Part shown: positions 2,874 to 39,995 of the stretch, in pieces
Position numbering within the stretch: the first letter of the stretch is position 1
Layout: the number at the start of each line of letters is the position of its first letter
From: Vicinamibacteria bacterium
GTDB taxonomy: Bacteria; Acidobacteriota; Vicinamibacteria; Marinacidobacterales; Marinacidobacteraceae
Direction of reading: 5' to 3'
Assembly: GCA_963668695.2 (NCBI GenBank)
Contig: CAXXLQ010000004.1
Coordinates: 2,752,001-2,816,000 of the forward strand
DNA length: 64,000 nucleotides
Notes under the pieces: model-generated
Databases searched by the model: none
Seen by the model: only the letters and a program-made list of their open reading frames with translations
What the model was told of the DNA's origin: nothing
Position numbers and translations under genes: made by a program

Positions 2874-3052
2874 CAGCCTGTGGCAAAACCCACACGGCGT
2901 TCGACCGGCGATCCATCCCGGCTGAACCGCGTCGCTTCGCGCCGCTCATCGTTGCGTTTCGGTCGAAATACACCCGGTATTCCTCCCTCACGCGCCTTGT
3001 CAGCCGCGCGCCTCGCCGGTCTCGGCGCTCACGTGGGTTTCACCACAGGCTG
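2874..3052 (+). mobile_element. MITE family A copy 1 (179 bp), TSD CTAG/CTAG
   Basis: Terminal inverted repeats CAGCCTGTGG...CCACAGGCTG; CTAG at 2870-2873 and 3053-3056; left TSD contains the UGPase stop codon. Confidence 0.9.
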
Positions 3053-3207
3053 CTAGGAGTCGTGGTGCCGACCGCCGGCCAGTCCTCCCGGTGGCGCCCG
3101 GCACAGCGGCCCGTAGCGCCGCCGAGATGCGTACGGTTGCGCTCCTTCACGGGATGACCGCCTTCCTCCCAGACAGCCCCGGCTAGAATCCGCCCTTCCC
3201 CACTCCC

Positions 3208-7067: not shown

Positions 7068-7694
7068 GTGCTTCGAAGTATCCCGAGTCGCAGCCGTAGC
7101 ACGCAGGTGTATCGCCTGGCGCGCGATGGCCCGATGGAGGAGGTCCTTGCCGAGCATCAGCTCGACCCATCGGCAGGTGACGACATAGCGGCGGACTTCA
7201 TCGAATTTGGCTACGTGGTGAATGAGCGGGAGTTGCTGGACACTCCCTTTCGACCGAAGCGAAACCGCAAGCCGACCCGGTTTTCCGATGGGTCGTTTCC
7301 CGTCTTCTACAGTTCGCTGGATTCGGAAACGGCCGAGGCGGAGGTGCGGCATTGGGCGCGGACGTTTCTCGGGGACCCCGAACAACCGAGGACGACTTAC
7401 CGCTGGCTGTTTCGCTGTAGCTTCGATGGCGTAGAAAAGGACGTTCGTCCGCAAATTGGGACTTGGCCCGATTTGGTCCACACTAGCGATTACGCTTTCT
7501 GCAACCGGCTCGGCGCCGAAGCCGTACGGCTCAGGTTGGATGGTCTTGTGACATGGTCGGCCCGGCGCGCGCGGGGAGTGAATGTGCCGGTTTTCTCGCG
7601 GAAGTCGCTTTCGAATCCTGACAAGGTGAGGCTAGTGACCGTGACCTACAACCCGGCTACCGATTCGGTCTCCGTTCAACCAGCTTCCCAATAG
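7068..7694 (+). CDS. RES domain toxin (MbcT/ParT-like NAD+ phosphorylase family)
   Basis: TRFSDGSFPVFYSS...TAEAE (R, E) and DGLVTWSAR...NV (S) motifs. Confidence 0.8.
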   Translation: MLRSIPSRSRSTQVYRLARDGPMEEVLAEHQLDPSAGDDIAADFIEFGYVVNERELLDTPFRPKRNRKPTRFSDGSFPVFYSSLDSETAEAEVRHWARTFLGDPEQPRTTYRWLFRCSFDGVEKDVRPQIGTWPDLVHTSDYAFCNRLGAEAVRLRLDGLVTWSARRARGVNVPVFSRKSLSNPDKVRLVTVTYNPATDSVSVQPASQ

Positions 7695-10364: not shown

Positions 10365-10633
10365 CAGCCGGTGGATAAAGTGGCGTGAGCGCCGAGAGCG
10401 GCAGTTCTCCCGGTGGCGGCGAGGCCCAGTTCTCCCGGTGGGGGTCCGGCTGACAAGGCGCGCGAGGGAGGAGCCCCCACCGGGAGAACTGGCCCGGGTG
10501 TATTTCGACCGAAGCGCAACGATGAACGACGCGAAGCGGAGTGTTTCAGCCGGGGCCCCCACCGGGAGAACTGGGGATCGCCGCTCGAGCCCCCACCGGG
10601 AGAACTGGGCCGCGTGACTTTGTCCACAGGCTG
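10365..10633 (-). mobile_element. MITE family A copy 2 (269 bp) with five nested 21-mers
   Basis: TIRs CAGCCGGTGG / CCACAGGCTG; flanks CTGG/CTAG; right flank supplies the apt stop codon. Confidence 0.9.
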
Positions 10634-14790: not shown

Positions 14791-15423
14791 GTGTTTCGGA
14801 TCCCCCCGCGGGCGCTCGCCGTGTTCGTGGCGCGGGGTGTGCTGGGTCTCGTGTTCTTCATGGCGGGCTGGTGGAAGGTGTTCGAGATGGGAGCCTTGGA
14901 ACACGCACGATCTCTCTTCGTGGGGCCGTACGCGGAGAGCTGGCTGCCGGCGTGGGCGCTTTGGGCGCTAGCAGCCTGTGGCGAAACCCAGGGCGGCGTT
15001 CGGCCGGCGATCCATCCCGGCTGACCGCGTCGCTTCGCGCCGCTCATCGTTGCGTTTCGGTCGAAATACACCCGGTATTCCTCCCTCACGCGCCTTGTCA
15101 GCCGGGCGCCTCCCCGGCCTCGGCGCTCACCCGGGTTCCACTACAGGCTGCTGAGGACAGCGGTGCCGTTCGTGGAGCTCATCGCCGGGGGGTTGATGCT
15201 GGCCGGGTGGATGCGGTGGCCGGCAGCGCTCGGACTCGGGGGAGTGCTGATCCTGGTGACCTTCGGGCATCTGCTGGCGGAGCCGCTCTTTGCCTTCAAC
15301 GCGCATGTGATTCCGCGCACACTCTTGCTGGTCTTGGTGCTCGCGCTCTTCGAGGAGGACCGCTGGAGCGTGGATGGATCGCTCGCGCGGCGCCGGGCGG
15401 CGAAACAAGCGCAGAATCGCTGA
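14791..15423 (+). pseudogene. DoxX-family membrane protein interrupted by an in-frame MITE
   Basis: ARGVLGLVFFMAGWWK N-terminus and PFVELIAGGL C-terminus are in the same frame, separated by a 183-bp insertion containing TGA 15022-15024. Confidence 0.8.
14972..15150 (+). mobile_element. MITE family A copy 3 (inside doxX)
   Basis: TIRs CAGCCTGTGG / CTACAGGCTG; flanks CTAG/CTGA. Confidence 0.9.
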
Positions 15424-16222: not shown

Positions 16223-16323
16223 GCCGGGTGCCGGTACAGTGCTTTCGGAGGACATCGACCTCCTGCGCTGCGTCTTCCCGGAACAGTGACGCGTTCTCCG
16301 TTTCGTCAGGGGTGGGCCTTTAA

Positions 16324-16521
16324 CAGCCTGTGGCAAAACCCACGCGGCGTTCGGTCGGCGATGCATCCCGCCCGAACCACTCCGCTTCGCTCCGTTCTTC
16401 GTTGCGTTTCGGTCGAAATACACCAGGTATTCCTCCCTCACGCGCCTCGTCGGACGGGCGCCTCGCCCCCACCGGGAGAACTGGCCGACCTCGGCGCTCA
16501 CGTGAGTTTCACCACAGGCTG
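16324..16521 (+). mobile_element. MITE family A copy 4 (198 bp; one nested 21-mer)
   Basis: TIRs present; flanks TTAA/TTAG. Confidence 0.9.
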
Positions 16522-16550
16522 TTAGGTGGGTCACGGGAGACCCTGTTCAA

Positions 16551-16784
16551 CAGCCTGTGGCAAAACCCACGCGGCCCAGTTCTCCCGGTGGGGGCTCGCC
16601 CGGCGATGCATCCCGGCTGAACCTCTCCGCTTCGCTCCGTTCTGTGTTGCGTTTCGGTCGAAATACACTCGGGCCAGTTCTCCCGGTGGGGGCTCCTCCC
16701 TCACGCGCCTTGTCAGCCGGGCGCCTCGCCCCCACCGGGAGAACTGGCCGGGCTCGGCGCTCACGTGGGTTTCACCACAGGCTG
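16551..16784 (+). mobile_element. MITE family A copy 5 (234 bp; three nested 21-mers)
   Basis: TIRs present; flanks TCAA/TTAA. Confidence 0.9.
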
Positions 16785-23314: not shown

Positions 23315-23520
23315 CAGCCGGTGGTGAAACCCACGCGGCGTTCGAGCGGCGATGCATCCTTGCTGAACCGCTTCGCTCGTCGTTGCGCTTCGGTCGAAAT
23401 ACACCCGGGCCAGTTCTCCCGGTGGGGGCTCCTCCCTCGCGCGCCTTGTCAGCCGGGCGCCTCGCCCCCACCGGGAGAACTGGCCGCTCTCGGCGCTCAC
23501 GCGGATTTCGCCACGGGCTG
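23315..23520 (+). mobile_element. MITE family A copy 6 (206 bp; two nested 21-mers)
   Basis: TIRs CAGCCGGTGG / CCACGGGCTG; flanks TCAG/CTAG. Confidence 0.88.
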
Positions 23521-25813: not shown

Positions 25814-26404
25814 GTGACTTCCGATCCGGTGGAGCGACCGAGGCCGCACATCCTCGCGGTCTGGGTGGAGGACCTTCCCGGGGTCCTGAACCGCGTCACC
25901 TCGCTCTTCCGGCGCCGCGGCTTCAACATCGAGTCGCTCACCGTCGGACCCGCGCGAGCCCCGGGGGTGTCCCGGATGACGATCGTGCTGCGGGCGGACC
26001 CGACGGCCGCGCGCCGGATGCTGGTCCAGCTTTCCCGTCTCGTCAACGTGCTGCGCATCGACGAGATTACGAACGAGCCCACGATCCGCCACGAGCTGGC
26101 CATGTTCAAGGTCTCGGCCGCCCCCGAGGAACGCTCCCAGGTGATCCATTTGGCGGGTGCTATCGGGGCCCGCCTGGTGGATATCGCGCCAGGGTCGGTG
26201 GTGATCGAGGCCACCGCTTCGCCGCAAAAGATTGATGGGCTCGCCGAAGTGCTGCGCCCCTACGGGATCCTGGAACAGGTTCGCACCGGAATGGTCGGGA
26301 TGGCGCGGGGCGCTGCGAGCGTCATGACCGACCCGGATGCCCGGAATCCACCGAAACGCCGGATCTCGCGGGACGAGGACGACGGCGGATCGCAGTCCGT
26401 TTAA
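25814..26404 (+). CDS. ilvN: acetolactate synthase small regulatory subunit
   Basis: ACT domain PGVLNRVTSLFRRRGFNIESL; follows ilvB. Confidence 0.93.
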   Translation: MTSDPVERPRPHILAVWVEDLPGVLNRVTSLFRRRGFNIESLTVGPARAPGVSRMTIVLRADPTAARRMLVQLSRLVNVLRIDEITNEPTIRHELAMFKVSAAPEERSQVIHLAGAIGARLVDIAPGSVVIEATASPQKIDGLAEVLRPYGILEQVRTGMVGMARGAASVMTDPDARNPPKRRISRDEDDGGSQSV

Positions 26405-26583
26405 CAGCCTGTGGCGAAACCCAGGCGGCGTTCGGCCGGCGATCCATCCCGGCTGAACCGCGTCGCTTTGCGCCGCTCATCGTTGCGTTTCGGTCGCAAT
26501 ACACCAGGTATTCCTCCCTCACGCGCCTTGTCAGCCGGGCGCCTCCCCGGCCTCGGCGCTCACCCGGGTTCCACCACAGGCCG
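26405..26583 (+). mobile_element. MITE family A copy 7 (179 bp) between ilvN and ilvC
   Basis: TIRs present; flanks TTAA/TTAG; left flank contains the ilvN stop codon. Confidence 0.9.
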
Positions 26584-26707
26584 TTAGGATTTTCTCAGCA
26601 GCGAAGGCAGACTCTCCCTTTCTTGTCACGCCCGCGGTTTGCGGGCGCCTTTGACGCAACGTTTTCCGGCGAAATGGACGCTTCGCCGCCCCCGGAGGAT
26701 CTCTTCC

Positions 26708-33859: not shown

Positions 33860-36460
33860 ATGTCCATGTACCTGCGTCTCAGCTTCGCCCTCCTCCTGCT
33901 GGCGGCCACTCCGCTTTTCGCTCAGCCCCAGCGCTGGCCGCCGCCACCAATCATCCAGGGGGTTGCGGAGGCGTATCCGCCGGCGCGCCACGGTGGGAAC
34001 TACATGCACAACTACTACTTCCCGCCGGCGCCGAGCAGCACTCCCTGGGCTCCCGCCTGGTCACCGGACGGGAAGTCGATCGCGGTGGCGATGTCCGGCT
34101 CCATCTGGCGCGTGGATCCTGAAACGGGGATTGCCGACGAACTGACGTCCGGCCCCGGATACCACTCGCTCCCCACCTGGTCTCCCGACGGGAGACACAT
34201 CGTCTTCACGGTGGACCGAAACGGCGAGACCATCGGCCTCGCGATCACGGACCTGGCCACCGGGGAAATCCGTTCTCTCACGAACGATGAGTTCCTTTAC
34301 ACCGATCCGGCGTTCTCGCCGGACGGGACGCGGCTCGCCTACGTGTCCACGAAGCCATCGGGCTACTTCAACGTCTATGTCCGTGAGTTCGCGAACGGCG
34401 AACTCGGTTCCGAAGAGATGGCGCTTACCAGGGACGAGAACTACGGCAAGGAGCGGCTCTACTTCGGCTCCTGGGACATGCACATCACACCGGCCTGGAT
34501 GCCCGACTCCCGGGAACTGCTGATGGTCTCCAATCACGAGGTGCCGCTCGGCTCGGGGAACGTCATCCGGACTCCGATGGCGGTAGACGGCTTCGAAGAG
34601 GGCGTGACGGTGCTCGCGGAACAGTCGCTCTACCGGAGTCGTCCGGATGTCTCCATCGACGGGAAGCGGTTCATCTATTCCTCGACCGCCGGTGCGGCGG
34701 ATCAGTTCTCGAACCTCTACGTCCAGCCGACCGACGGCGGGTCGCCCTACAAGCTGACCTTCTTCGAGCACGACGCCTTCCATCCCCGCTGGTCGCCGAA
34801 CGGCGAGTGGATCGCCTATGTGGACAACTCCGGGGGACTCCCGCAGCTCGCGCTGCTCGAGACCTACGGCGGCAAGCGGCGCGTCGTCGAGATCACCCGG
34901 CGCAACTGGAGCCGACCGATGGGGGTGCTCTCGGTGCGTACGGTGGATGACGCGACCGGCGAGGAGGTCGCTGCCCGGATTCACCTGCGGGCCTCCGACA
35001 CCCGGTTCTACGCCCCGCCGGACGCCTACGCCCGGATCGGGGGCGCCGATGAGCACTCCTTCCACCAGCCAGGCAGTTTCCGGATGGAAGTCCCGGTGGG
35101 ACCCCTCGAGATCGAGGCGGTGCGCGGCTTCGAGCACGAACCCCTGAGCGCCAGTGTGGAGATCGCGGCCGGCGACGTCACCGAGCTGACGCTGCGGCTC
35201 GTTCGGATCACCGACATGGCGGCCAAGGGATGGTGGAGCGGCTCCACTCACGTCCACATGAACTACGCCGGCAACCTGCACAACACGCTGGAGAACCTGA
35301 TGTTCATGTCGGACGCCGAGGACCAGGACGTAGTGCTGGAACAGGTCGCCAACAAGGACAACCGCATTCTGGACTACCAGCACTTCATCCCCGGCGGCGA
35401 GGAGCATCCGCTTTCCACCGAAGATCGGGTGCTGGTGGTGGGACAGGAATACCGGCCACCCTTCTACGGCCACGTCTTTCTCTTCGGGATGAAGGAGCAC
35501 CTCCTCTCGCCCTACACCACCGGCTACGAGGGAACCGGAATCGAGAGCCTCTATCCGTCGAACACCGACATGTTCCGGAAGGCGAGAGCCCAGGGCGCGA
35601 CCGTCGGCTATGTGCACGCGTTCTTCGGGGAGAACGATCCGCTCGTCGGCCCGGGCGGAAGTCCCGGGAACCTGGGTGGCGCCAAGGGATACATGGTGGA
35701 TGCCGCGCTCGGCACCACGGATGCGGTCGAGTGGTCCTCCGCGTCACGGGCCGGGTTCTTTCCCTGGTACGCCACGCTGAACAACGGCCTCCGGGTCACT
35801 GCGGTGGGCGGCGAGGACTCGATCAGCAACATGCAGCGGTCCAAGCTGGTCGGCTCGGTCCGCACCTACGTGCACACCGGAGAACGGGGACTGGATCTCG
35901 ACGCTTTCCTCGAAGGGATCCGGGAGGGCAGGGCCTTCGTGAGTTGCGGGCCCGTGCTCGACTTCCGCGTAGAGGGCCGGATCCCGGGGGACGACGTGCA
36001 GCTTCCCGAATCGGGAGGCGAAGTGGAGTGGAGCGCGTGGGTGCGCTCCTCGACGCCGCTCCAGCGGGCCTGGGTGGTCTCGGGGGGCGTGGACGTGGCC
36101 GAGGTGCCGCTGTCGGAGGATCGGCGCTCCGCCCGGGCCACCGGCCAGGTCACCATGGACCGGAGCGGCTGGCTGATCCTCCGGGCGGAAGGTTCCCCGG
36201 AGGAGGCGCGCCCGCTCGACTGCAGCTACGCGCAGGCGTTCACCAATCCGGTCTGGGTCAGGGCAGGGGAGCAGCCGGTCCGGAGCGCCGCCGCCGCCGA
36301 ATACTCCATCCGCTGGATCGACCGGCTCCGCCAGTTGGCTGAAGAATGGGAGTACTGGCGCTCGGACGCCGAGAAGGCGCATGTCTATGCCCAGTTCGAC
36401 GAGGCCCGCGCGATCTACCAGGGGTTCCTGGCCGAGGCCCGCGCGCTGGGCCGGGAATGA
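33860..36460 (+). CDS. secreted TolB-like (PD40) beta-propeller fused to a CehA/McbA-family PHP-like metallohydrolase
   Basis: Repeated P.WSPDG motifs; GSTHVHM, GQEYR...GH, GGEDS in the C-terminal domain. Confidence 0.8.
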   Translation: MSMYLRLSFALLLLAATPLFAQPQRWPPPPIIQGVAEAYPPARHGGNYMHNYYFPPAPSSTPWAPAWSPDGKSIAVAMSGSIWRVDPETGIADELTSGPGYHSLPTWSPDGRHIVFTVDRNGETIGLAITDLATGEIRSLTNDEFLYTDPAFSPDGTRLAYVSTKPSGYFNVYVREFANGELGSEEMALTRDENYGKERLYFGSWDMHITPAWMPDSRELLMVSNHEVPLGSGNVIRTPMAVDGFEEGVTVLAEQSLYRSRPDVSIDGKRFIYSSTAGAADQFSNLYVQPTDGGSPYKLTFFEHDAFHPRWSPNGEWIAYVDNSGGLPQLALLETYGGKRRVVEITRRNWSRPMGVLSVRTVDDATGEEVAARIHLRASDTRFYAPPDAYARIGGADEHSFHQPGSFRMEVPVGPLEIEAVRGFEHEPLSASVEIAAGDVTELTLRLVRITDMAAKGWWSGSTHVHMNYAGNLHNTLENLMFMSDAEDQDVVLEQVANKDNRILDYQHFIPGGEEHPLSTEDRVLVVGQEYRPPFYGHVFLFGMKEHLLSPYTTGYEGTGIESLYPSNTDMFRKARAQGATVGYVHAFFGENDPLVGPGGSPGNLGGAKGYMVDAALGTTDAVEWSSASRAGFFPWYATLNNGLRVTAVGGEDSISNMQRSKLVGSVRTYVHTGERGLDLDAFLEGIREGRAFVSCGPVLDFRVEGRIPGDDVQLPESGGEVEWSAWVRSSTPLQRAWVVSGGVDVAEVPLSEDRRSARATGQVTMDRSGWLILRAEGSPEEARPLDCSYAQAFTNPVWVRAGEQPVRSAAAAEYSIRWIDRLRQLAEEWEYWRSDAEKAHVYAQFDEARAIYQGFLAEARALGRE

Positions 36461-36530
36461 CGGAGCGGACTGCCGGGAATCGTCCCGGCGACGCTTCGGG
36501 GTTTTCGTTATCGCCTGATACGCTCGCGAT

Positions 36531-36872
36531 ATGAGTCTGGTGGGGCGCGCCTTCGGCACGAAAGCGCCGTTTGTCGCGGCCAGCCAGATCGACGAAGTTC
36601 TGAGCGGCGGGCGCGTCCTGCTGCTCGACGTACGGACGGCTCTGGAACTCGCGGAGTCGGGGACCATTCCCGGCGCGGTCCATATTCACCTCGGAGAACT
36701 CGCGGAGCGGGTGGAAGAACTGCCCCGCGACCGTCCGGTGCTCACTACTTGAATGGTGGGACCACGCGCCGCGCGGGCCGCGGCCATTTTGGAAAACGCA
36801 GGATTCGAGGTCGTTGGTTTCAGCGGCCTCAAGCAATACACGGGCGTCCGGGAATACCGGCCGCTCGATTGA
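36531..36872 (+). CDS. rhodanese-domain putative selenoprotein (Sec at TGA 36750-36752)
   Basis: LLDVRT..E...G.IPGAVHI...LP.DRPVLTT[TGA]MVGPRAARAAAIL..AGF: the TGA occupies the active-site Cys slot and the fold continues in frame to TGA 36870. Confidence 0.85.
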
Positions 36873-36880
36873 TTCCTGAA

Positions 36881-37049
36881 CAGCCTGTGAACAAAGTCAC
36901 GCGGCATTCGACCGGCGATGCATCCCGGCTGAACCGCGTTGCTCGTCGTTGCACTTCGGTCGAAATACAGCCAGTACTCCTCCCTCGTGCGCCTTGTCAG
37001 CCGGGCGCCTCACCGGTCTCGGTGCTCACGTCACTTTGTCCACAGGCTG
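36881..37049 (+). mobile_element. MITE family A copy 8 (169 bp) between the two rhodanese genes
   Basis: TIRs present; flanks TGAA/TTAA; right flank abuts the AGGAGG RBS of the next gene. Confidence 0.88.
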
Positions 37050-37065
37050 TTAAAGGAGGTCCATT

Positions 37066-37506
37066 GTGAAACGGACTCTTTCCCTTGCCGGTGTCGCCTT
37101 GGCGGCAGCGGTTCTCGGATGGGGCTGCGGAGGCGGTGAGCCTCCGGCCGAGGAAAGTGCGGCGCCCGAGCCCGCGGCGCCGGAACCGGCCCCGGCCCCG
37201 CGGGTCGAAGCTGAGGAAATCGACGCGGCTCTTGCGGCCGGCGCCGTCCTCCTCGACGTTCGCACCGATGAGGAGCTCGCCGAGCACGGCACGATCGACG
37301 GCTTCATCCACATTCCGATTGACGAACTGGAGGCGAGGATCGGTGAACTCCCGACCGGAGTTCCCGTCCTCACTGCTTGACAGGGTGGCGGAAGAGCCGC
37401 GCGTGCCGCGGAGCTGCTACAAGCAAACGGATACGAAGTCGTCGGTTTCTGTGGCCTGAGAGGCTACGAGGGAGAGCGGGTCTTTCCCGGAGCCTCGGGT
37501 AACTGA
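37066..37506 (+). CDS. lipoprotein rhodanese, putative selenoprotein (Sec at TGA 37378-37380)
   Basis: Signal peptide with lipobox-like LGWGC, Pro/Ala linker, LLDVRT, PVLTA[TGA]QGGGRAARAAELL..NGY in frame to TGA 37504. Confidence 0.85.
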
Positions 37507-37521
37507 TCCAGGCGAAACGGG

Positions 37522-38823
37522 TCAGATCTGAACGGTCCGGAATCCCGCCATCACGTCGCGGCGGTCCGGGCTGAAGAAGTTGCGGTAGCGGCCGGTCAGC
37601 AGCCGGCCGCGAGTTGCCCAGGCGCCGCCGCGCAGTACCTTCGTCTCGTGGAATCCGGCCTCGGAATAGTCCCGGTAGGCGTCGGGACGAAAACCGGGAT
37701 AGGGCCGCAAGGTGTCCTCCGTCCACTCCCAGACGTTGCCGAGCATCTGCCGGCAGCCGAAGGCGCTGTCCCCGGCGGGCAGTGCTCCGACGTCGGAACA
37801 TCCGAGCGACCAGCCGTTGAGGTTCGCGCGCCGCGGGTCTGGAGGCGCCTCGCCCCAGGGGTACGTCCTTTTGGTTGCCGCCAGGCTGTTTCCGTCGGGT
37901 TCGCCGAGGGCGGCGGTCTCCCACTCCACCTCGGTGGGGAGCCGCCGTCCGGCCCAGGCGCAATAGGCACTGGCCTCGAACCAATTGACGTGGATGACAG
38001 GTTCGTTCAGGGGCAGCGGCTCGATGAGGTCGAACCGCCGCACCTGGAATCCTTGCCGACCGTCGGGAATCCAGTAAACGGGATGGGTTGCCGCGGCCTC
38101 TACCCTCCAATCCCAGCCCGGTTCGCTCCAGAACTCCCGCCGCTGGTAGCCGCCGGCATCCACGAATTCGGCGAACTCCGCTTGGCTGACCGGCGCCTTC
38201 GCGATCGAAAACGGCTGAACCCGGACCGGGTGCGCCCATTTTTCGTTGTCGAAGAAGAACGGCGCCTCCCTCTCCGCGCCGAGCCGGAACGTGCCGCCGG
38301 GGACGCTGGCGTCTCCCGGGTGGCTGCCGCCGCCCGCCGCTTCCGGCGTCCGACCCGGGCCGATTCGCGGCGCGGGGTAGCCGAGGGTCTGCCGGGAATA
38401 GATGTACGCCTCGGTGTGCATGTCCTCATGGAAGGTGGCGAACTGGTACATGAAACTGTTCCTGGTGCTCGCCAACCCTGGATCCAGTCTTTCCAGGCAG
38501 CGGTCCTTGACCGTTTCGGCGTAGCGGATCGTTTCGGCCATGCCCGGGAGGGGCAGATCCCAGCGAACCTCCTGGTGGACGGCCGCCGAGTCGTAGAGGT
38601 CGTCTCCCTCGGGCAAGATCGGCGCGTATCCGTAGAGGTCCCGCAGGATGAATCTCTCGTGGAACCAGGCAACGTGCCCGATCTCCCACCGCAGCGGGTT
38701 GACGATGGTCAACCGTGTTCCCATCAGTTGGTCCTCGTCGAGGCCGGCGGTCAGCGCCAGGCTTCGCCGGTGGGCGTCGTCCATGATGGCTGCGAGGTGA
38801 TCGGCCGGGACGCGCTTTGTCAT
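37522..38823 (-). CDS. senA: selenoneine synthase (EgtB-like DinB + FGE-sulfatase domains)
   Basis: VNPLRWEIGHVAWF and FHEDMHTEA metal-binding motifs (canonical EgtB has HEQQH), FDNE, RRLPTE.EWE, GNVWEW; adjacent senB. Confidence 0.85.
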   Translation of the reverse strand: MTKRVPADHLAAIMDDAHRRSLALTAGLDEDQLMGTRLTIVNPLRWEIGHVAWFHERFILRDLYGYAPILPEGDDLYDSAAVHQEVRWDLPLPGMAETIRYAETVKDRCLERLDPGLASTRNSFMYQFATFHEDMHTEAYIYSRQTLGYPAPRIGPGRTPEAAGGGSHPGDASVPGGTFRLGAEREAPFFFDNEKWAHPVRVQPFSIAKAPVSQAEFAEFVDAGGYQRREFWSEPGWDWRVEAAATHPVYWIPDGRQGFQVRRFDLIEPLPLNEPVIHVNWFEASAYCAWAGRRLPTEVEWETAALGEPDGNSLAATKRTYPWGEAPPDPRRANLNGWSLGCSDVGALPAGDSAFGCRQMLGNVWEWTEDTLRPYPGFRPDAYRDYSEAGFHETKVLRGGAWATRGRLLTGRYRNFFSPDRRDVMAGFRTVQI

Positions 38824-38848
38824 GGTTTCCGTCCGGGCGCGGAGTGAG

Positions 38849-39027
38849 CAGCCGGTGGTGAAACCCAGGCGGCGTTCGAGCGGCGATGCATCCCGGCTGA
38901 ACCGCGCCGCTATGCGGCGCTCGGCGTTGCGTTTGGGTCGAAATACACTTGGTATTCCTCCCTCACGCGCCTTGTCAGCCGGGCGCCTCGCCGCTCTCGG
39001 CGCTCACCCGGGTTCCAGCACAGGCTG
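38849..39027 (+). mobile_element. MITE family A copy 9 (179 bp) in the senA/senB divergent intergenic region
   Basis: TIRs CAGCCGGTGG / GCACAGGCTG; flanks TGAG/CTAA. Confidence 0.88.
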
Positions 39028-39041
39028 CTAAAGGGTCGCCC

Positions 39042-39995
39042 GTGCGGATCATTCTAGTAACCCCGGCGGGGGCGGGTTCGCGCAGCGGGAACCGCGTCAC
39101 GGCGGTCCGCTGGGCACGGATCCTTCGGTCGCTCGGCCACGGCGTCACAGTCGAGACCGCGTGGGACGGCGCTCCCGCGGACCTGCTGATCGCCCTCCAT
39201 GCCTGGCGGAGCGCCGCATCGGTCACCCGCTACCGATCGCGTTTTCCGGCCCGTCCGCTGATCGTGGCGCTCACCGGAACGGACGTGTACCGCTTTTTGC
39301 ACTCCGATGAAGCGACGACCCGGCGGTCGCTCCAAGACGCCGATGTCCTGATCGCGCTCCACGATCTGGTCCAGGACGCACTGCCGACGGAGTTCCTTTC
39401 GAAGGTGCGGGTCGTTCACCAATCGGTAGCGAACCCGGGTCTGCCGCGCCGTCCTTCCCGGCGTTTTTTCGATGTTTGCGTGGTCGGGCACCTGCGCTTC
39501 GAAAAGGACCCGATGAGAGCGGCCTACGCGGCGCGGGCCATGCCCGAGGCCTCCCGGTTGCGCGTTCTCCACGCCGGCGGAGCCCGCGACCCGAGCTGGG
39601 CGGAACCGGCGCGCCGGGAGATGGCCTGCAACCGGCGTTACCGGTGGCTTGGTGAGGTGCCCGGCTGGCGCGTGGGCCGGCTCTACGCCAGGACGCACGC
39701 CATGGTGATCTCATCGGTGATGGAAGGAGGGCCCAACGTGGTCTCGGAAGCGGTCGTGGCAGGGCTCCCGGTGATCGCTTCCCGGATTCCGGGGAACGTC
39801 GGCCTCCTCGGCCCGGACTACCCGGGCTACTACGCGCCGCAGGACACCGACGCGCTTCGCGAGGCGCTCTGGCGCGCCGAGAGCGCCCCTGGATTCCTCG
39901 ACGAGCTGGCCCGGCACGGCGCGCAGCGAGCGCCGCTCTTCGCGCCCGAGCGCGAACGGGAGACCTGGCGCCAACTGCTCAGCGCCGTGGGGTGA
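39042..39995 (+). CDS. senB: selenosugar synthase (GT-B glycosyltransferase)
   Basis: VTPA...GNRVTAVRWA, ALHAWRSA, LTGTDVY, GHLRFEKDP, SSVMEGGPNVVSEA, GNVGLLG.DYPGY: SenB-type pattern. Confidence 0.88.
   Translation: MRIILVTPAGAGSRSGNRVTAVRWARILRSLGHGVTVETAWDGAPADLLIALHAWRSAASVTRYRSRFPARPLIVALTGTDVYRFLHSDEATTRRSLQDADVLIALHDLVQDALPTEFLSKVRVVHQSVANPGLPRRPSRRFFDVCVVGHLRFEKDPMRAAYAARAMPEASRLRVLHAGGARDPSWAEPARREMACNRRYRWLGEVPGWRVGRLYARTHAMVISSVMEGGPNVVSEAVVAGLPVIASRIPGNVGLLGPDYPGYYAPQDTDALREALWRAESAPGFLDELARHGAQRAPLFAPERERETWRQLLSAVG

What the first reader, a model, noticed from the sequence alone, without database searches (positions are those of the whole stretch)
36531..39995. Selenium locus: two hidden Sec-rhodaneses (one a lipoprotein) next to senA/senB selenoneine genes
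Seen in sequence: the ORF track truncates both rhodanese genes at a TGA (36750, 37378) that falls exactly where the catalytic Cys sits (VLTT-U-MVGPR; VLTA-U-QGGGR). The rest of the domain follows in frame in both. They converge on senA, with senB divergent from senA. Established: SenB makes a selenosugar from selenophosphate and SenA couples it to hercynine to give selenoneine; the usual cluster includes SenC (a SelD homolog), which is absent from this window. Inference: a cytoplasmic and an exported/membrane-anchored Sec-rhodanese may form a selenium capture or relay module feeding selenoneine synthesis, linking Sec recoding to small-molecule Se metabolism. I do not recall this gene association being described.
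Basis: partly seen in the sequence, partly recalled or inferred. Interest (0 to 1): 0.9.

Follow-up and report, generated by a model that had tools for sequence, protein, structure and literature searches.

The report
Two selenocysteine rhodaneses beside selenoneine genes
Two small neighbouring sulfur-transfer (rhodanese) genes really do encode selenocysteine at their catalytic position and sit next to real selenoneine genes, but this kind of selenoprotein is already known and the neighbourhood is confined to one genus, so it is probably not a shared pathway.

Summary
Observation confirmed. Two tandem paralogous rhodanese genes (36531-36872; 37066-37506, lipoprotein-like) carry TGA exactly at the catalytic Cys codon. 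The TGA is present in all 55 copies read in 32 loci, and coding constraint continues after it. An invariant hairpin 16 nt downstream fits the published bacterial SECIS model. A Cys ortholog exists. The genome has tRNA-Sec, SelA, SelB and SelD. Contigs of four public runs keep both TGA codons.

senA (NF041186, 474.6 bits) and senB (TIGR04348, 400.3 bits) are true family members. SelD lies about 2 Mb away, and EgtD/EgtB also lie elsewhere.

The proposed selenium relay into selenoneine synthesis is not supported:
- The rhodanese pair occurs without SenB in 9 of 9 genomes of six sister genera.
- In 14 other genomes holding both kinds of gene they are not adjacent: far apart on one contig in six, on separate contigs in eight, some of them short.
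- Adjacency is seen only in this genus (15 of 16 genomes), and the genes are convergent, not co-transcribed.

Sec-rhodaneses with a UxxG motif are already catalogued, and public annotation truncates these copies. This scan reached the same reading before on another genome. A 180-nt structured element before rhd2 and senB looked like a riboswitch but is a dispersed repeat (663 places). Low-to-moderate interest: a new member of a known kind.

The parts
36482..36502 (+). terminator-like hairpin between the upstream PD40/beta-propeller gene (33860-36460) and rhd1
   Evidence: Consensus scan. Two such sites were found in the region against 2.0 expected, so this is only a hint that rhd1 starts its own transcription unit.
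36531..36872 (+). rhd1: cytoplasmic single-domain rhodanese selenoprotein, 113 residues, with no signal peptide
   Evidence: Translation. Pfam PF00581 at 47.1 bits. 23 of 23 copies in relatives keep TGA and the U-MVGPR motif. Public proteins are truncated at 70-77 aa in 65 of 68 hits.
36750..36752 (+). Sec codon (UGA) of rhd1, at the catalytic Cys position
   Evidence: It is unchanged in contigs of runs X3 and X6.
36768..36784 (+). candidate SECIS hairpin of rhd1: 6-bp G/C stem and a 5-nt loop CGGGC (CGUGC in most relatives)
   Evidence: The alifold consensus gives the same hairpin in 20 distinct sequences. MFE is -11.1 kcal/mol. 21 nt separate the UGA from the loop. Codons +7, +9 and +10 are invariant.
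36877..37056 (+). copy of a dispersed 180-nt hairpin-forming repeat inserted between rhd1 and rhd2; it is not part of the selenium genes
   Evidence: 663 places in the genome. It is absent from this gap in G004, G008, G009 and G014, where the gap is about 22-25 nt.
37066..37506 (+). rhd2: exported, lipoprotein-type rhodanese selenoprotein, 146 residues. It has a signal peptide ending ...LGWG-C21, then a Pro/Ala/Glu-rich linker.
   Evidence: Translation. Pfam 42.7 bits. 32 of 32 copies keep TGA and the U-[QN]GGGR motif. The N-termini of 8 orthologs and the Cys form P0069 all show a charged start, a hydrophobic stretch and [AG]-C. 117 of 117 public homologs are truncated at the TGA.
37378..37380 (+). 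Sec codon (UGA) of rhd2
   Evidence: It aligns with Cys105 of the Cys ortholog P0069. It is unchanged in contigs of X3, X6, X9 and X10.
37397..37411 (+). candidate SECIS hairpin of rhd2: 5-bp stem and loop CGUGC
   Evidence: MFE -7.8 kcal/mol. Codons +6 to +10 (GCC GCG CGT GCC GCG) show no synonymous change in 22 of 22 distinct sequences.
37522..38823 (-). senA, selenoneine synthase (DinB_2 plus FGE-sulfatase domains), convergent with rhd2
   Evidence: NCBIfam NF041186 SenA at 474.6 bits (cut-off 420), against EgtB TIGR03440 at 312.4 bits (cut-off 360). Pfam domains.
38845..39034 (+). second copy of the dispersed repeat, in the senA-senB intergenic region
   Evidence: The senA-senB gap is 20-116 nt in G004, G008, G009 and G014, and 218 nt here.
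39042..39995 (+). senB, selenosugar synthase (GT-B glycosyltransferase), 317 residues, GTG start
   Evidence: NCBIfam TIGR04348 at 400.3 bits (cut-off 300). The N-terminus VRIILVTPAG aligns with the start of 26 other SenB sequences.

Best explanation
The locus holds two independent things that happen to be neighbours in one genus.

(1) A two-gene unit of paralogous single-domain rhodaneses, 55% identical. In both, the catalytic cysteine is replaced by selenocysteine.
- Decoding: UGA is read as Sec with the help of a short G/C hairpin that begins 16 nt after the codon, using the genome's tRNA-Sec, SelA, SelB and SelD.
- rhd1 stays in the cytoplasm. rhd2 is exported and most likely lipid-anchored.
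- By analogy with their nearest solved relatives (rhodanese domains of persulfide dioxygenase fusions and CoA-persulfide/disulfide reductases) and with the E. coli GlpE (cytoplasmic) and PspE (periplasmic) pair, they most likely carry sulfane sulfur, or possibly selenium, on the active-site selenolate and hand it to a thiophilic acceptor. This step is inferred, not shown.
- An invariant Cys 24 residues after the Sec in rhd2 could close a selenenyl-sulfide. This is also inferred.

(2) A two-gene senA/senB selenoneine set. It draws selenophosphate from the single housekeeping SelD 2 Mb away and hercynine from an egtB-egtD pair elsewhere in the genome.

The shared address reflects one ancestral arrangement in genus g1 and the shared dependence of both sets on the selenium-utilisation trait. 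It is not a dedicated relay.
For: Sec decoding:
- TGA lies at the catalytic codon in 55 of 55 copies in 32 loci.
- 57 of 57 matches at E <= 1.8e-18 in 41 relatives contain TGA.
- After the TGA, third-codon positions vary while first and second positions do not, so translation continues.
- Codons +6 to +10 have no synonymous change in 22 of 22 rhd2 sequences and almost none in 20 rhd1 sequences, at a hairpin with a 5-6 bp stem and a 5-nt loop with G then U/G. The hairpin lies 21 nt from UGA, with MFE -11.1 and -7.8 kcal/mol.
- These values meet the four constraints of the bacterial SECIS model as quoted in PMC13188914 (passages read).
- The Cys ortholog P0069 is 48% identical over 127 residues, with C105 aligned to U105.
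- The machinery is present: tRNA-Sec at 69.7 bits with anticodon TCA, SelA 410 bits, SelD 252.7 bits, SelB 306 bits.
- The TGA codons are unchanged in contigs of 4 runs from 3 studies.

Fold and active site: Pfam and the PDB alignments.

sen genes: SenA and SenB are above their equivalog cut-offs. EgtD scores 340.9 bits, next to an EgtB-like gene, at C4:407235-409520.

Independence of the two sets:
- The rhodanese pair is present and SenB was not found in 9 of 9 genomes of genera g2-g7.
- Five same-order and nine phylum-sample genomes have both, unlinked.
- Neighbours of 36 rhodanese loci are heterogeneous, with no selenium or sulfur partner recurring.
- SenB in this order falls into three separate clades.
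- SelD is never next to SenB in the 41 relatives.
Against: - No direct evidence of selenium in the proteins, and no biochemical data for this family.
- The SECIS stem shows no covariation because it never varies. Its folding energy is no better than that of shuffled G+C-rich sequence (z 0.34 and -0.16). The case therefore rests on nucleotide invariance.
- Adjacency to senAB is kept in 15 of 16 genomes of the genus, which a functional link would also predict.
- At genome level, TGA-rhodanese and SenB co-occur more often than independence predicts: 10 genomes observed against about 4 expected among 304 SelD-positive genomes of 401. These cases cluster in five families, and kin are not independent.
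- For 7 of the 9 phylum-sample genomes that hold both, the genes lie on different contigs, some of them short, so adjacency cannot be strictly excluded there.
- In the phylum sample I counted the TGA inside the matches but did not check its position.
- Lipoprotein status rests on pattern only. The -2 Trp in LGWGC is atypical by my recollection of the PROSITE lipobox rule.
Confidence: 0.8

Rival explanations
1. Dedicated selenium relay. The exported Sec-rhodanese captures selenium outside the membrane, the cytoplasmic one passes it on, and the pair feeds SenB/SenA specifically, standing in for the missing SenC context.
For: - Adjacency is conserved in G000 and 14 of 15 other genomes of the genus.
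- Rhodanese can carry selenium as a perselenide and has been discussed as a selenium-delivery protein (PMC8538045, passages read, citing Ogasawara et al. 2001 and 2005).
- There is genome-level co-occurrence above independence.
Against: - The pair exists without SenB in 9 of 9 genomes of six sister genera.
- It is unlinked to SenB in the 14 other genomes that have both.
- rhd2 and senA are convergent.
- SenB needs selenophosphate, which only SelD makes, and SelD is present 2 Mb away.
- No transporter links the two compartments in the locus.
Confidence: 0.07
2. General selenium trafficking. The Sec-rhodanese pair handles selenium (selenite/GSH-derived Se(0) held as a Se-Se adduct) and delivers it to SelD for all selenium uses. 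It would be linked to selenoneine only indirectly.
For: - The same literature basis as above.
- Every genome with the TGA form necessarily uses selenium.
- The family is widespread in a phylum where SelD is common: 36 and 304 of 401 genomes respectively.
Against: - No linkage to selD, selA or selB in G000, and none in the 36 contexts examined.
- Sec-for-Cys replacement is common in ordinary redox and sulfur enzymes, so it does not point to a selenium substrate (reviews PMC9312934 and PMC13188914, passages read).
- The nearest solved relatives are persulfide-handling domains.
Confidence: 0.12
3. The TGAs are real stops, so these are truncated or decaying genes, or sequencing artefacts; or TGA is read as something other than Sec.
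For: Public annotation ends the proteins at the TGA. The hairpin energy is not distinguishable from shuffles.
Against: - 55 of 55 copies keep TGA, and protein-level constraint continues after it, across 50-95% identity.
- TGA also ends both genes, so it is not generally reassigned.
- The full Sec machinery is present.
- Independent assemblies agree.
Confidence: 0.02

Closest known systems
Rhodanese-like domain selenoproteins with a UxxG motif ('form 2' and 'form 4', rhodanese-related sulfurtransferase) listed in PMC13188914 (2026 review; table passages read); first reported from the Sargasso Sea metagenome (PMC1088965; table passage read) and also listed in PMC9312934
   Same: Both have a PF00581 domain, Sec at the catalytic Cys position, and a U-x-x-G motif (UMVG and UQGG here). 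Both were predicted by Sec/Cys pairing plus a bacterial SECIS, and in both the function is untested.
   Different: I could not fetch the review's representative accessions, so sequence-level identity with those forms is not shown. The NCBI accessions of the close homologs I looked up are different ones. The reviews, in the passages I read, do not mention a tandem cytoplasmic plus lipoprotein pair.
E. coli GlpE (cytoplasmic) and PspE (periplasmic) single-domain rhodaneses (PMC2593051, abstract seen in the search listing)
   Same: A pair of about 100-residue single-domain sulfurtransferases, one on each side of the inner membrane. Both have a six-residue active-site loop (recalled).
   Different: The E. 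coli proteins use Cys, are not paralogous neighbours, and PspE is soluble rather than lipid-anchored. NCBIfam GlpE scores only 23.5 bits here against a cut-off of 102.
Rhodanese domains of persulfide dioxygenase-rhodanese fusion BpPRF (5ve3) and of CoA-disulfide/persulfide reductases (3icr, 8a56, 6pfz)
   Same: These are the best sequence matches among solved structures (E 7.8e-11 to 7e-6). The U aligns to their loop Cys.
   Different: Those are C-terminal domains of multidomain enzymes and use Cys. The proteins here stand alone.
senA-senB-senC selenoneine cluster of Variovorax paradoxus and Amycolatopsis palatopharyngis (Kayrouz et al., bioRxiv 10.1101/2022.04.13.486033; passages read)
   Same: SenA and SenB are above their equivalog cut-offs. 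A selenophosphate source (SelD) and a hercynine source (EgtD) are present in the genome.
   Different: There is no linked senC: SelD is 2.06 Mb away and is the only copy. This is not unusual. The preprint itself counts 827 three-gene clusters among 2,353 TIGR04348 loci, and no SenB in the 41 relatives has SelD beside it.

Membership tests
Bacterial selenoprotein gene (Sec-UGA decoding) | In-frame UGA conserved among orthologs, with protein-coding constraint continuing downstream | tested here: met
   55 of 55 copies keep TGA. Third-position variation continues after the TGA.
Bacterial selenoprotein gene (Sec-UGA decoding) | bSECIS hairpin: 3-9 nt apical loop, 4-16 bp stem, G in the first two loop positions, 16-37 nt from UGA, MFE <= -7.5 kcal/mol (model as quoted in PMC13188914) | tested here: met
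   Loop of 5 nt (C-G-U/G-G-C), stem of 5-6 bp, spacing of 21 nt, MFE -11.1 and -7.8 kcal/mol, and invariant nucleotides. Caveat: the energy is not better than shuffles, and there is no covariation.
Bacterial selenoprotein gene (Sec-UGA decoding) | A Cys-containing homolog aligning Cys with the UGA | tested here: met
   P0069 C105 aligns with U105 at 48% identity. The loop Cys of PDB rhodaneses aligns with U74.
Bacterial selenoprotein gene (Sec-UGA decoding) | tRNA-Sec, SelA, SelB and SelD in the genome | tested here: met
   all are above their cut-offs.
Bacterial selenoprotein gene (Sec-UGA decoding) | Selenium physically present in the protein | not testable with these tools
   This needs 75Se labelling or mass spectrometry.
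Rhodanese-like domain selenoprotein, UxxG forms (PMC13188914) | PF00581 domain with a U-x-x-G motif at the active-site loop | tested here: met
   and (UMVG, UQGG/UNGG).
Rhodanese-like domain selenoprotein, UxxG forms (PMC13188914) | Sequence relatedness to the listed representative proteins | not tested
   The accessions cannot be fetched here, and the cluster look-up returned other accessions.
NF041203 rhodanese_LYCAU (seleno)protein ('form 3', CxU) | Score at or above the equivalog cut-off of 115 bits | tested here: not met
   23.3 bits for rhd1 and no hit for rhd2.
SenA (NF041186) | Score at or above the equivalog cut-off of 420 bits, and above the EgtB model | tested here: met
   474.6 bits. 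EgtB TIGR03440 scores 312.4 bits, below its own cut-off of 360.
SenB (TIGR04348) | Score at or above the equivalog cut-off of 300 bits | tested here: met
   400.3 bits.
Canonical three-gene sen cluster | A selD/senC gene adjacent to senA/senB | tested here: not met
   The only SelD is at C4:729848-730786, against the window at C4:2752001-2816000.
Bacterial lipoprotein (rhd2) | Signal peptide ending in a lipobox with an invariant Cys | tested here: inconclusive
   A charged n-region, a hydrophobic stretch and [AG]-C are seen in G000, 8 orthologs and P0069. No SignalP or LipoP is available, and G000's LGWG-C is atypical.
Functional gene module rhodanese + senAB | Linkage recurring outside one closely related group, or co-transcription | tested here: not met
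   Adjacent only in genus g1. Unlinked or absent in every other genome examined. The orientation is convergent.

The most novel reading that the evidence does not exclude
The conserved cytoplasmic plus lipid-anchored Sec-rhodanese pair is a selenium-handling shuttle. The outer protein traps reduced selenium as a Se-Se (or Se-S-Se) adduct at the membrane surface. The inner one presents it to SelD. In this genus the pair was recruited next to senAB to form a small selenium island that channels selenium into selenoneine.
Probability: 0.08. Interest if true: 0.65.

Novelty: new member of a known kind. Interest (0 to 1): 0.3.

Why it matters
These genes are systematically mis-annotated. 65 of 68 and 117 of 117 public homologs are filed as 70-113-residue fragments or 'hypothetical protein'. 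Read correctly, they add a widespread selenoprotein to Acidobacteriota: 36 of 401 sampled genomes.

An exported, probably lipid-anchored selenoprotein paired with a cytoplasmic paralog is a tidy system for asking what Sec buys a rhodanese.

For selenoneine biology, the locus shows that in this order senAB runs on the housekeeping SelD, without a dedicated senC. It does not reveal a new pathway step.

Tried and rejected
1. Riboswitch idea.
- The 180-nt elements at 36877-37056 and 38845-39034 lie upstream of rhd2 and senB. They are 82-83% alike, have a long stem with an apparent compensatory change, fold with z -5.35 and -5.39, and have no Rfam match at E <= 1. They looked like a selenium-specific cis-regulator.
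- Rejected: blastn finds 663 places in the genome on both strands. The insertions are missing from the same gaps in four congeners.

2. Sec-containing SenB.
- SenB of G046 and G172 has TGA at codon 4.
- The equivalent position in the 24 other SenB examined is I, A, R, V, L, H or G, never Cys. This is therefore not a Sec/Cys site. It is left unexplained.

3. Guilt by association for the rhodaneses.
- ORFs around 36 rhodanese loci were clustered.
- Recurrent neighbours are sodium:solute symporters (8 loci, not adjacent), an M28 peptidase, ankyrin-repeat proteins, a glyoxalase-fold protein, MacB/FtsX, a transposase, an aminotransferase and an amidohydrolase. No functional lead came of this.

4. 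SECIS significance from folding energy. It is not distinguishable from shuffles.

5. SenB tree to date the arrival of senAB. Genus g1 is sister to one same-order genome, G032 (100/98 support), while other same-order SenB fall in two other clades. The distribution is patchy, but gain versus loss within the family is not resolved. L108 (G089, unpublished) was left out of the tree.

6. Transcription. RNA-library contigs of X9 and X10 cover rhd2, but contigs from an RNA library do not prove transcription. rhd1 had no cover there, which proves nothing.

7. Not run: structure or complex prediction, because no binding claim is made.

8. Not in print, as far as searched. Searches for selenoneine/SenA/SenB/rhodanese and selenoneine/selenoprotein/gene cluster/sulfurtransferase found no paper linking rhodanese selenoproteins to sen genes. 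Supplementary figures of the Kayrouz paper, which show cluster contexts, could not be seen.

Full report
WHAT IS THERE

On the plus strand, downstream of a PD40/beta-propeller gene (33860-36460), lie two short genes that the mechanical ORF list cuts at TGA.
- Read through, 36531-36872 gives a 113-residue protein with ...RPVLTT-U-MVGPRAARAA....
- 37066-37506 (GTG start behind AAGGAGG) gives a 146-residue protein with ...VPVLTA-U-QGGGRAARAA....
- Both match Pfam Rhodanese (47.1 and 42.7 bits). They are 55% identical to each other.
- In alignments to solved rhodanese domains (BpPRF 5ve3, NoxA-3 6pfz, CoA-disulfide reductase 3icr), residue 74 falls on the Cys of the C-x-x-G-x-R loop.
- The second protein begins with a charged, then hydrophobic stretch ending ...LGWG-C21, followed by a Pro/Ala/Glu-rich linker. 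The first has no such leader.

Next come the selenoneine genes.
- senA is convergent, on the minus strand (37522-38823). It scores 474.6 bits on NF041186, above the 420 cut-off, and only 312.4 bits on the EgtB model, below that model's 360 cut-off.
- senB diverges from senA and scores 400.3 bits on TIGR04348 (cut-off 300).
- Its real start is GTG 39042, not the 38949 of the ORF list.

ARE THE TGAs SELENOCYSTEINE?

Every test I could run says yes.

1. Conservation.
- In 41 related genomes, all 57 matches at E <= 1.8e-18 contain a TGA.
- In the 32 loci that I read codon by codon, 55 of 55 copies (23 rhd1, 32 rhd2) have TGA at the catalytic codon. The loops U-MVGPR and U-[QN]GGGR are invariant.

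2. Translation goes on. After the TGA, first and second codon positions stay fixed while third positions vary, as before the TGA.

3. SECIS.
- Both paralogs carry the same hairpin starting 16 nt after the UGA: a stem of GCCGCG with CGCGGC (5 bp in rhd2) and a loop C-G-U/G-G-C.
- In 22 of 22 distinct rhd2 sequences, codons +6 to +10 (GCC GCG CGT GCC GCG) show no synonymous change. In 20 rhd1 sequences, codons +7, +9 and +10 are invariant. Nearly all other four-fold codons vary.
- Loop size, stem length, G in the second loop position, the 21-nt spacing and the MFE (-11.1 and -7.8 kcal/mol) meet the bacterial SECIS model as quoted in PMC13188914.
- Caveat: shuffled sequence of this G+C content folds as well (z 0.34 and -0.16), and an invariant stem cannot show covariation. 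The weight lies on the nucleotide invariance.

4. Sec/Cys pair. P0069, a 148-residue lipoprotein-like homolog, is 48% identical over 127 residues and has Cys where rhd2 has U. It also shares the N-terminal Cys and a second Cys 24 residues after the active site.

5. Machinery. The genome has tRNA-Sec (69.7 bits, anticodon TCA), SelA (410 bits), SelB (306 bits) and SelD (252.7 bits).

6. Not an assembly error. Contigs of four public runs from three studies show no other letter at either codon. Runs X3 and X6 cover both codons. The RNA-library runs X9 and X10 cover rhd2 only.

TGA also terminates both genes, so the code is not generally changed.

IS THIS KIND KNOWN?

Yes.
- 'Rhodanese-related sulfurtransferase' selenoproteins were reported from the Sargasso Sea (PMC1088965, table passage).
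- A 2026 review lists five forms of rhodanese-like selenoproteins, two of them with the UxxG motif that both proteins here carry (PMC13188914, table passages). See also PMC9312934.
- The CxU form (NF041203) is not met: 23.3 bits against a cut-off of 115.
- I could not fetch the review's representative accessions. The family assignment therefore rests on domain and motif.

Public records truncate these genes.
- 65 of the 68 homologs of rhd1 are 70-77 residues long. The other three are P0065 (116 aa, off-frame tail), P0069 (148 aa, Cys form) and P0070 (124 aa, Cys rhodanese).
- 117 of the 117 homologs of rhd2 stop at the TGA.
- They are named 'rhodanese-like domain-containing protein' or 'hypothetical protein' of Acidobacteriota MAGs.

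IS THERE A RHODANESE-SELENONEINE MODULE?

The comparative evidence is against it.
- In genus g1, the order PD40 gene, rhd1, rhd2, senA (reverse), senB is kept in G000 and in 14 of 15 other genomes. The fifteenth, G007, lacks both gene sets; it is 89% complete and has withheld bases.
- In the six other genera of the same family (9 genomes), the tandem TGA pair is present in 9 of 9 and SenB was found in 0 of 9. There the pair follows rpmB (recognised from its sequence, not scanned) or lies beside an aminotransferase and an amidohydrolase.
- In the two other families of the order, lipoprotein-type TGA-rhodaneses (about 54% identity) and SenB both occur, but apart. In G027 they are at least 987 kb apart, in G040 303 kb, in G036 more than 4 Mb. 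In G032 and G039 they are on different contigs.
- In an even sample of 401 genomes of the phylum, 36 have a match with an in-frame TGA (position not checked there), 34 have SenB, and 10 have both. Apart from G000, none is adjacent: G042 and G152 have them on the same contig more than 1 Mb apart, and G089, G095, G134, G265, G275, G367 and G425 have them on different contigs.
- Ten is more than the roughly four expected if the two were independent among the 304 SelD-positive genomes. However, the ten sit in five families, and both traits need selenium utilisation, so I give this little weight.
- rhd2 and senA converge, with 15 nt between their stops. Co-transcription is therefore excluded.
- SenB needs selenophosphate, which rhodanese cannot make. 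The single SelD lies at C4:729848-730786, near SelA.
- In none of the 41 relatives is SelD beside SenB. The whole order therefore runs a two-gene sen set on the housekeeping SelD. A classical senB-selD pair does exist elsewhere in the phylum (G358).
- Hercynine supply is covered by EgtD (340.9 bits, cut-off 290.9), next to an EgtB-like gene at C4:407235-409520.
- SelU was not found; the genome is 91.7% complete.
- The SenB tree puts genus g1 next to G032 and places the other same-order SenB in two further clades. SenB is therefore patchy in this order, but the tree does not decide between gain in g1 and loss in its sister genera.

HOW IT MOST LIKELY WORKS

Shown:
- Two Sec-decoding rhodanese genes, one of them with an export/lipoprotein-type leader.
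- A conserved hairpin consistent with a SECIS.
- Real senA and senB, with SelD and EgtD elsewhere in the genome.

Inferred:
- The selenolate in a six-residue rhodanese loop accepts sulfane sulfur, or possibly selenium, and passes it on, as Cys rhodaneses do.
- The outer copy works at the membrane surface, and its invariant Cys 24 residues downstream (22 of 22; Ser in 16 of 20 rhd1) may form a selenenyl-sulfide.
- The closest functional picture is the GlpE/PspE pair of E. coli (PMC2593051, abstract).
- Rhodanese has been discussed as a selenium carrier for SelD, with physiological relevance unclear (PMC8538045). I keep a general selenium-delivery role at about 0.12 and a selenoneine-specific relay at about 0.07.
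- Neighbourhoods of 36 loci gave no partner.

A FALSE LEAD WORTH RECORDING

Two 180-190-nt elements (36877-37056 before rhd2; 38845-39034 before senB) share 82-83% identity. They fold into a long rod (z -5.35 and -5.39), end at the Shine-Dalgarno sequences and have no Rfam match. They are copies of a dispersed repeat with 663 places in this 4.1-Mb genome, on both strands. They are absent from the same gaps in four congeners.

EARLIER SCAN NOTES

Notes e1-1155536 and e1-1155537, on another genome, describe the same tandem Sec-rhodanese pair and the same senB-senA neighbours. They reached the same verdicts. I found them after my own tests, and they agree.

UNPUBLISHED GENOMES

The counts include G033. 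Those include G089, which is one of the ten genomes with both genes. One search also includes G064 and G192. No claim depends on any one of them.

VERDICT

This is a new member of a known kind, of modest interest, mainly as an annotation correction and as a clean example of an exported Sec-rhodanese.

Noticed in passing
window 36877-37056 and 38845-39034; further copies at 2874-3055, 10435-10533 (-), 14972-15130, 16322-16524, 16596-16730, 23315-23466, 26403-26586: A dispersed repeat of about 180 nt that folds into a long imperfect hairpin (z about -5.3). It has 663 places at E <= 1e-10 in the 4.1-Mb genome, 270 of them at least 150 nt long, on both strands, and no Rfam match. The two copies in this locus are recent insertions into intergenic gaps and end right at the ribosome-binding sites of rhd2 and senB. 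It reaches very high depth in both DNA and RNA-library contigs.
   Followed up: partly
L062 (G046:C2) about 7250-7263 and L063 (G172:C570) 1975-1992: SenB of two genomes of one genus reads M-R-I-TGA-I-V-T-P-A. That puts an in-frame TGA at codon 4, inside the conserved N-terminal strand. The 24 other SenB examined have I, A, R, V, L, H or G there, never Cys. It could be a start-site quirk, read-through or Sec; this is unresolved.
   Followed up: partly
G000:C4:729848-730786 and relatives: SelD of this family lies in an open frame of about 770-1450 residues (1359 here), which suggests a fusion protein. In the neighbouring family f2 and in much of the phylum, SelD carries one in-frame TGA, so SelD itself would be a selenoprotein there.
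   Followed up: no
G000:C1:12087-16378 and G000:C4:407235-411544: The egtB-egtD region appears twice with near-identical scores on contigs C1 and C4. Other matches are also duplicated. The likely cause is assembly redundancy, in line with the 9.3% contamination estimate.
   Followed up: no
L049, L050 (G027) and L054 (G036): The lipoprotein Sec-rhodanese occurs in two copies per genome, with nearly identical N-termini across genomes of two different families. In L121 (G079) a DDE transposase fragment lies beside it. This hints that the gene moves horizontally.
   Followed up: no
G026:C2:1601561-1602494 and G028:C16:126065-126992: SenB matches in these two same-order genomes are split into two pieces with a TGA at the junction. 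They are possibly disrupted genes.
   Followed up: no
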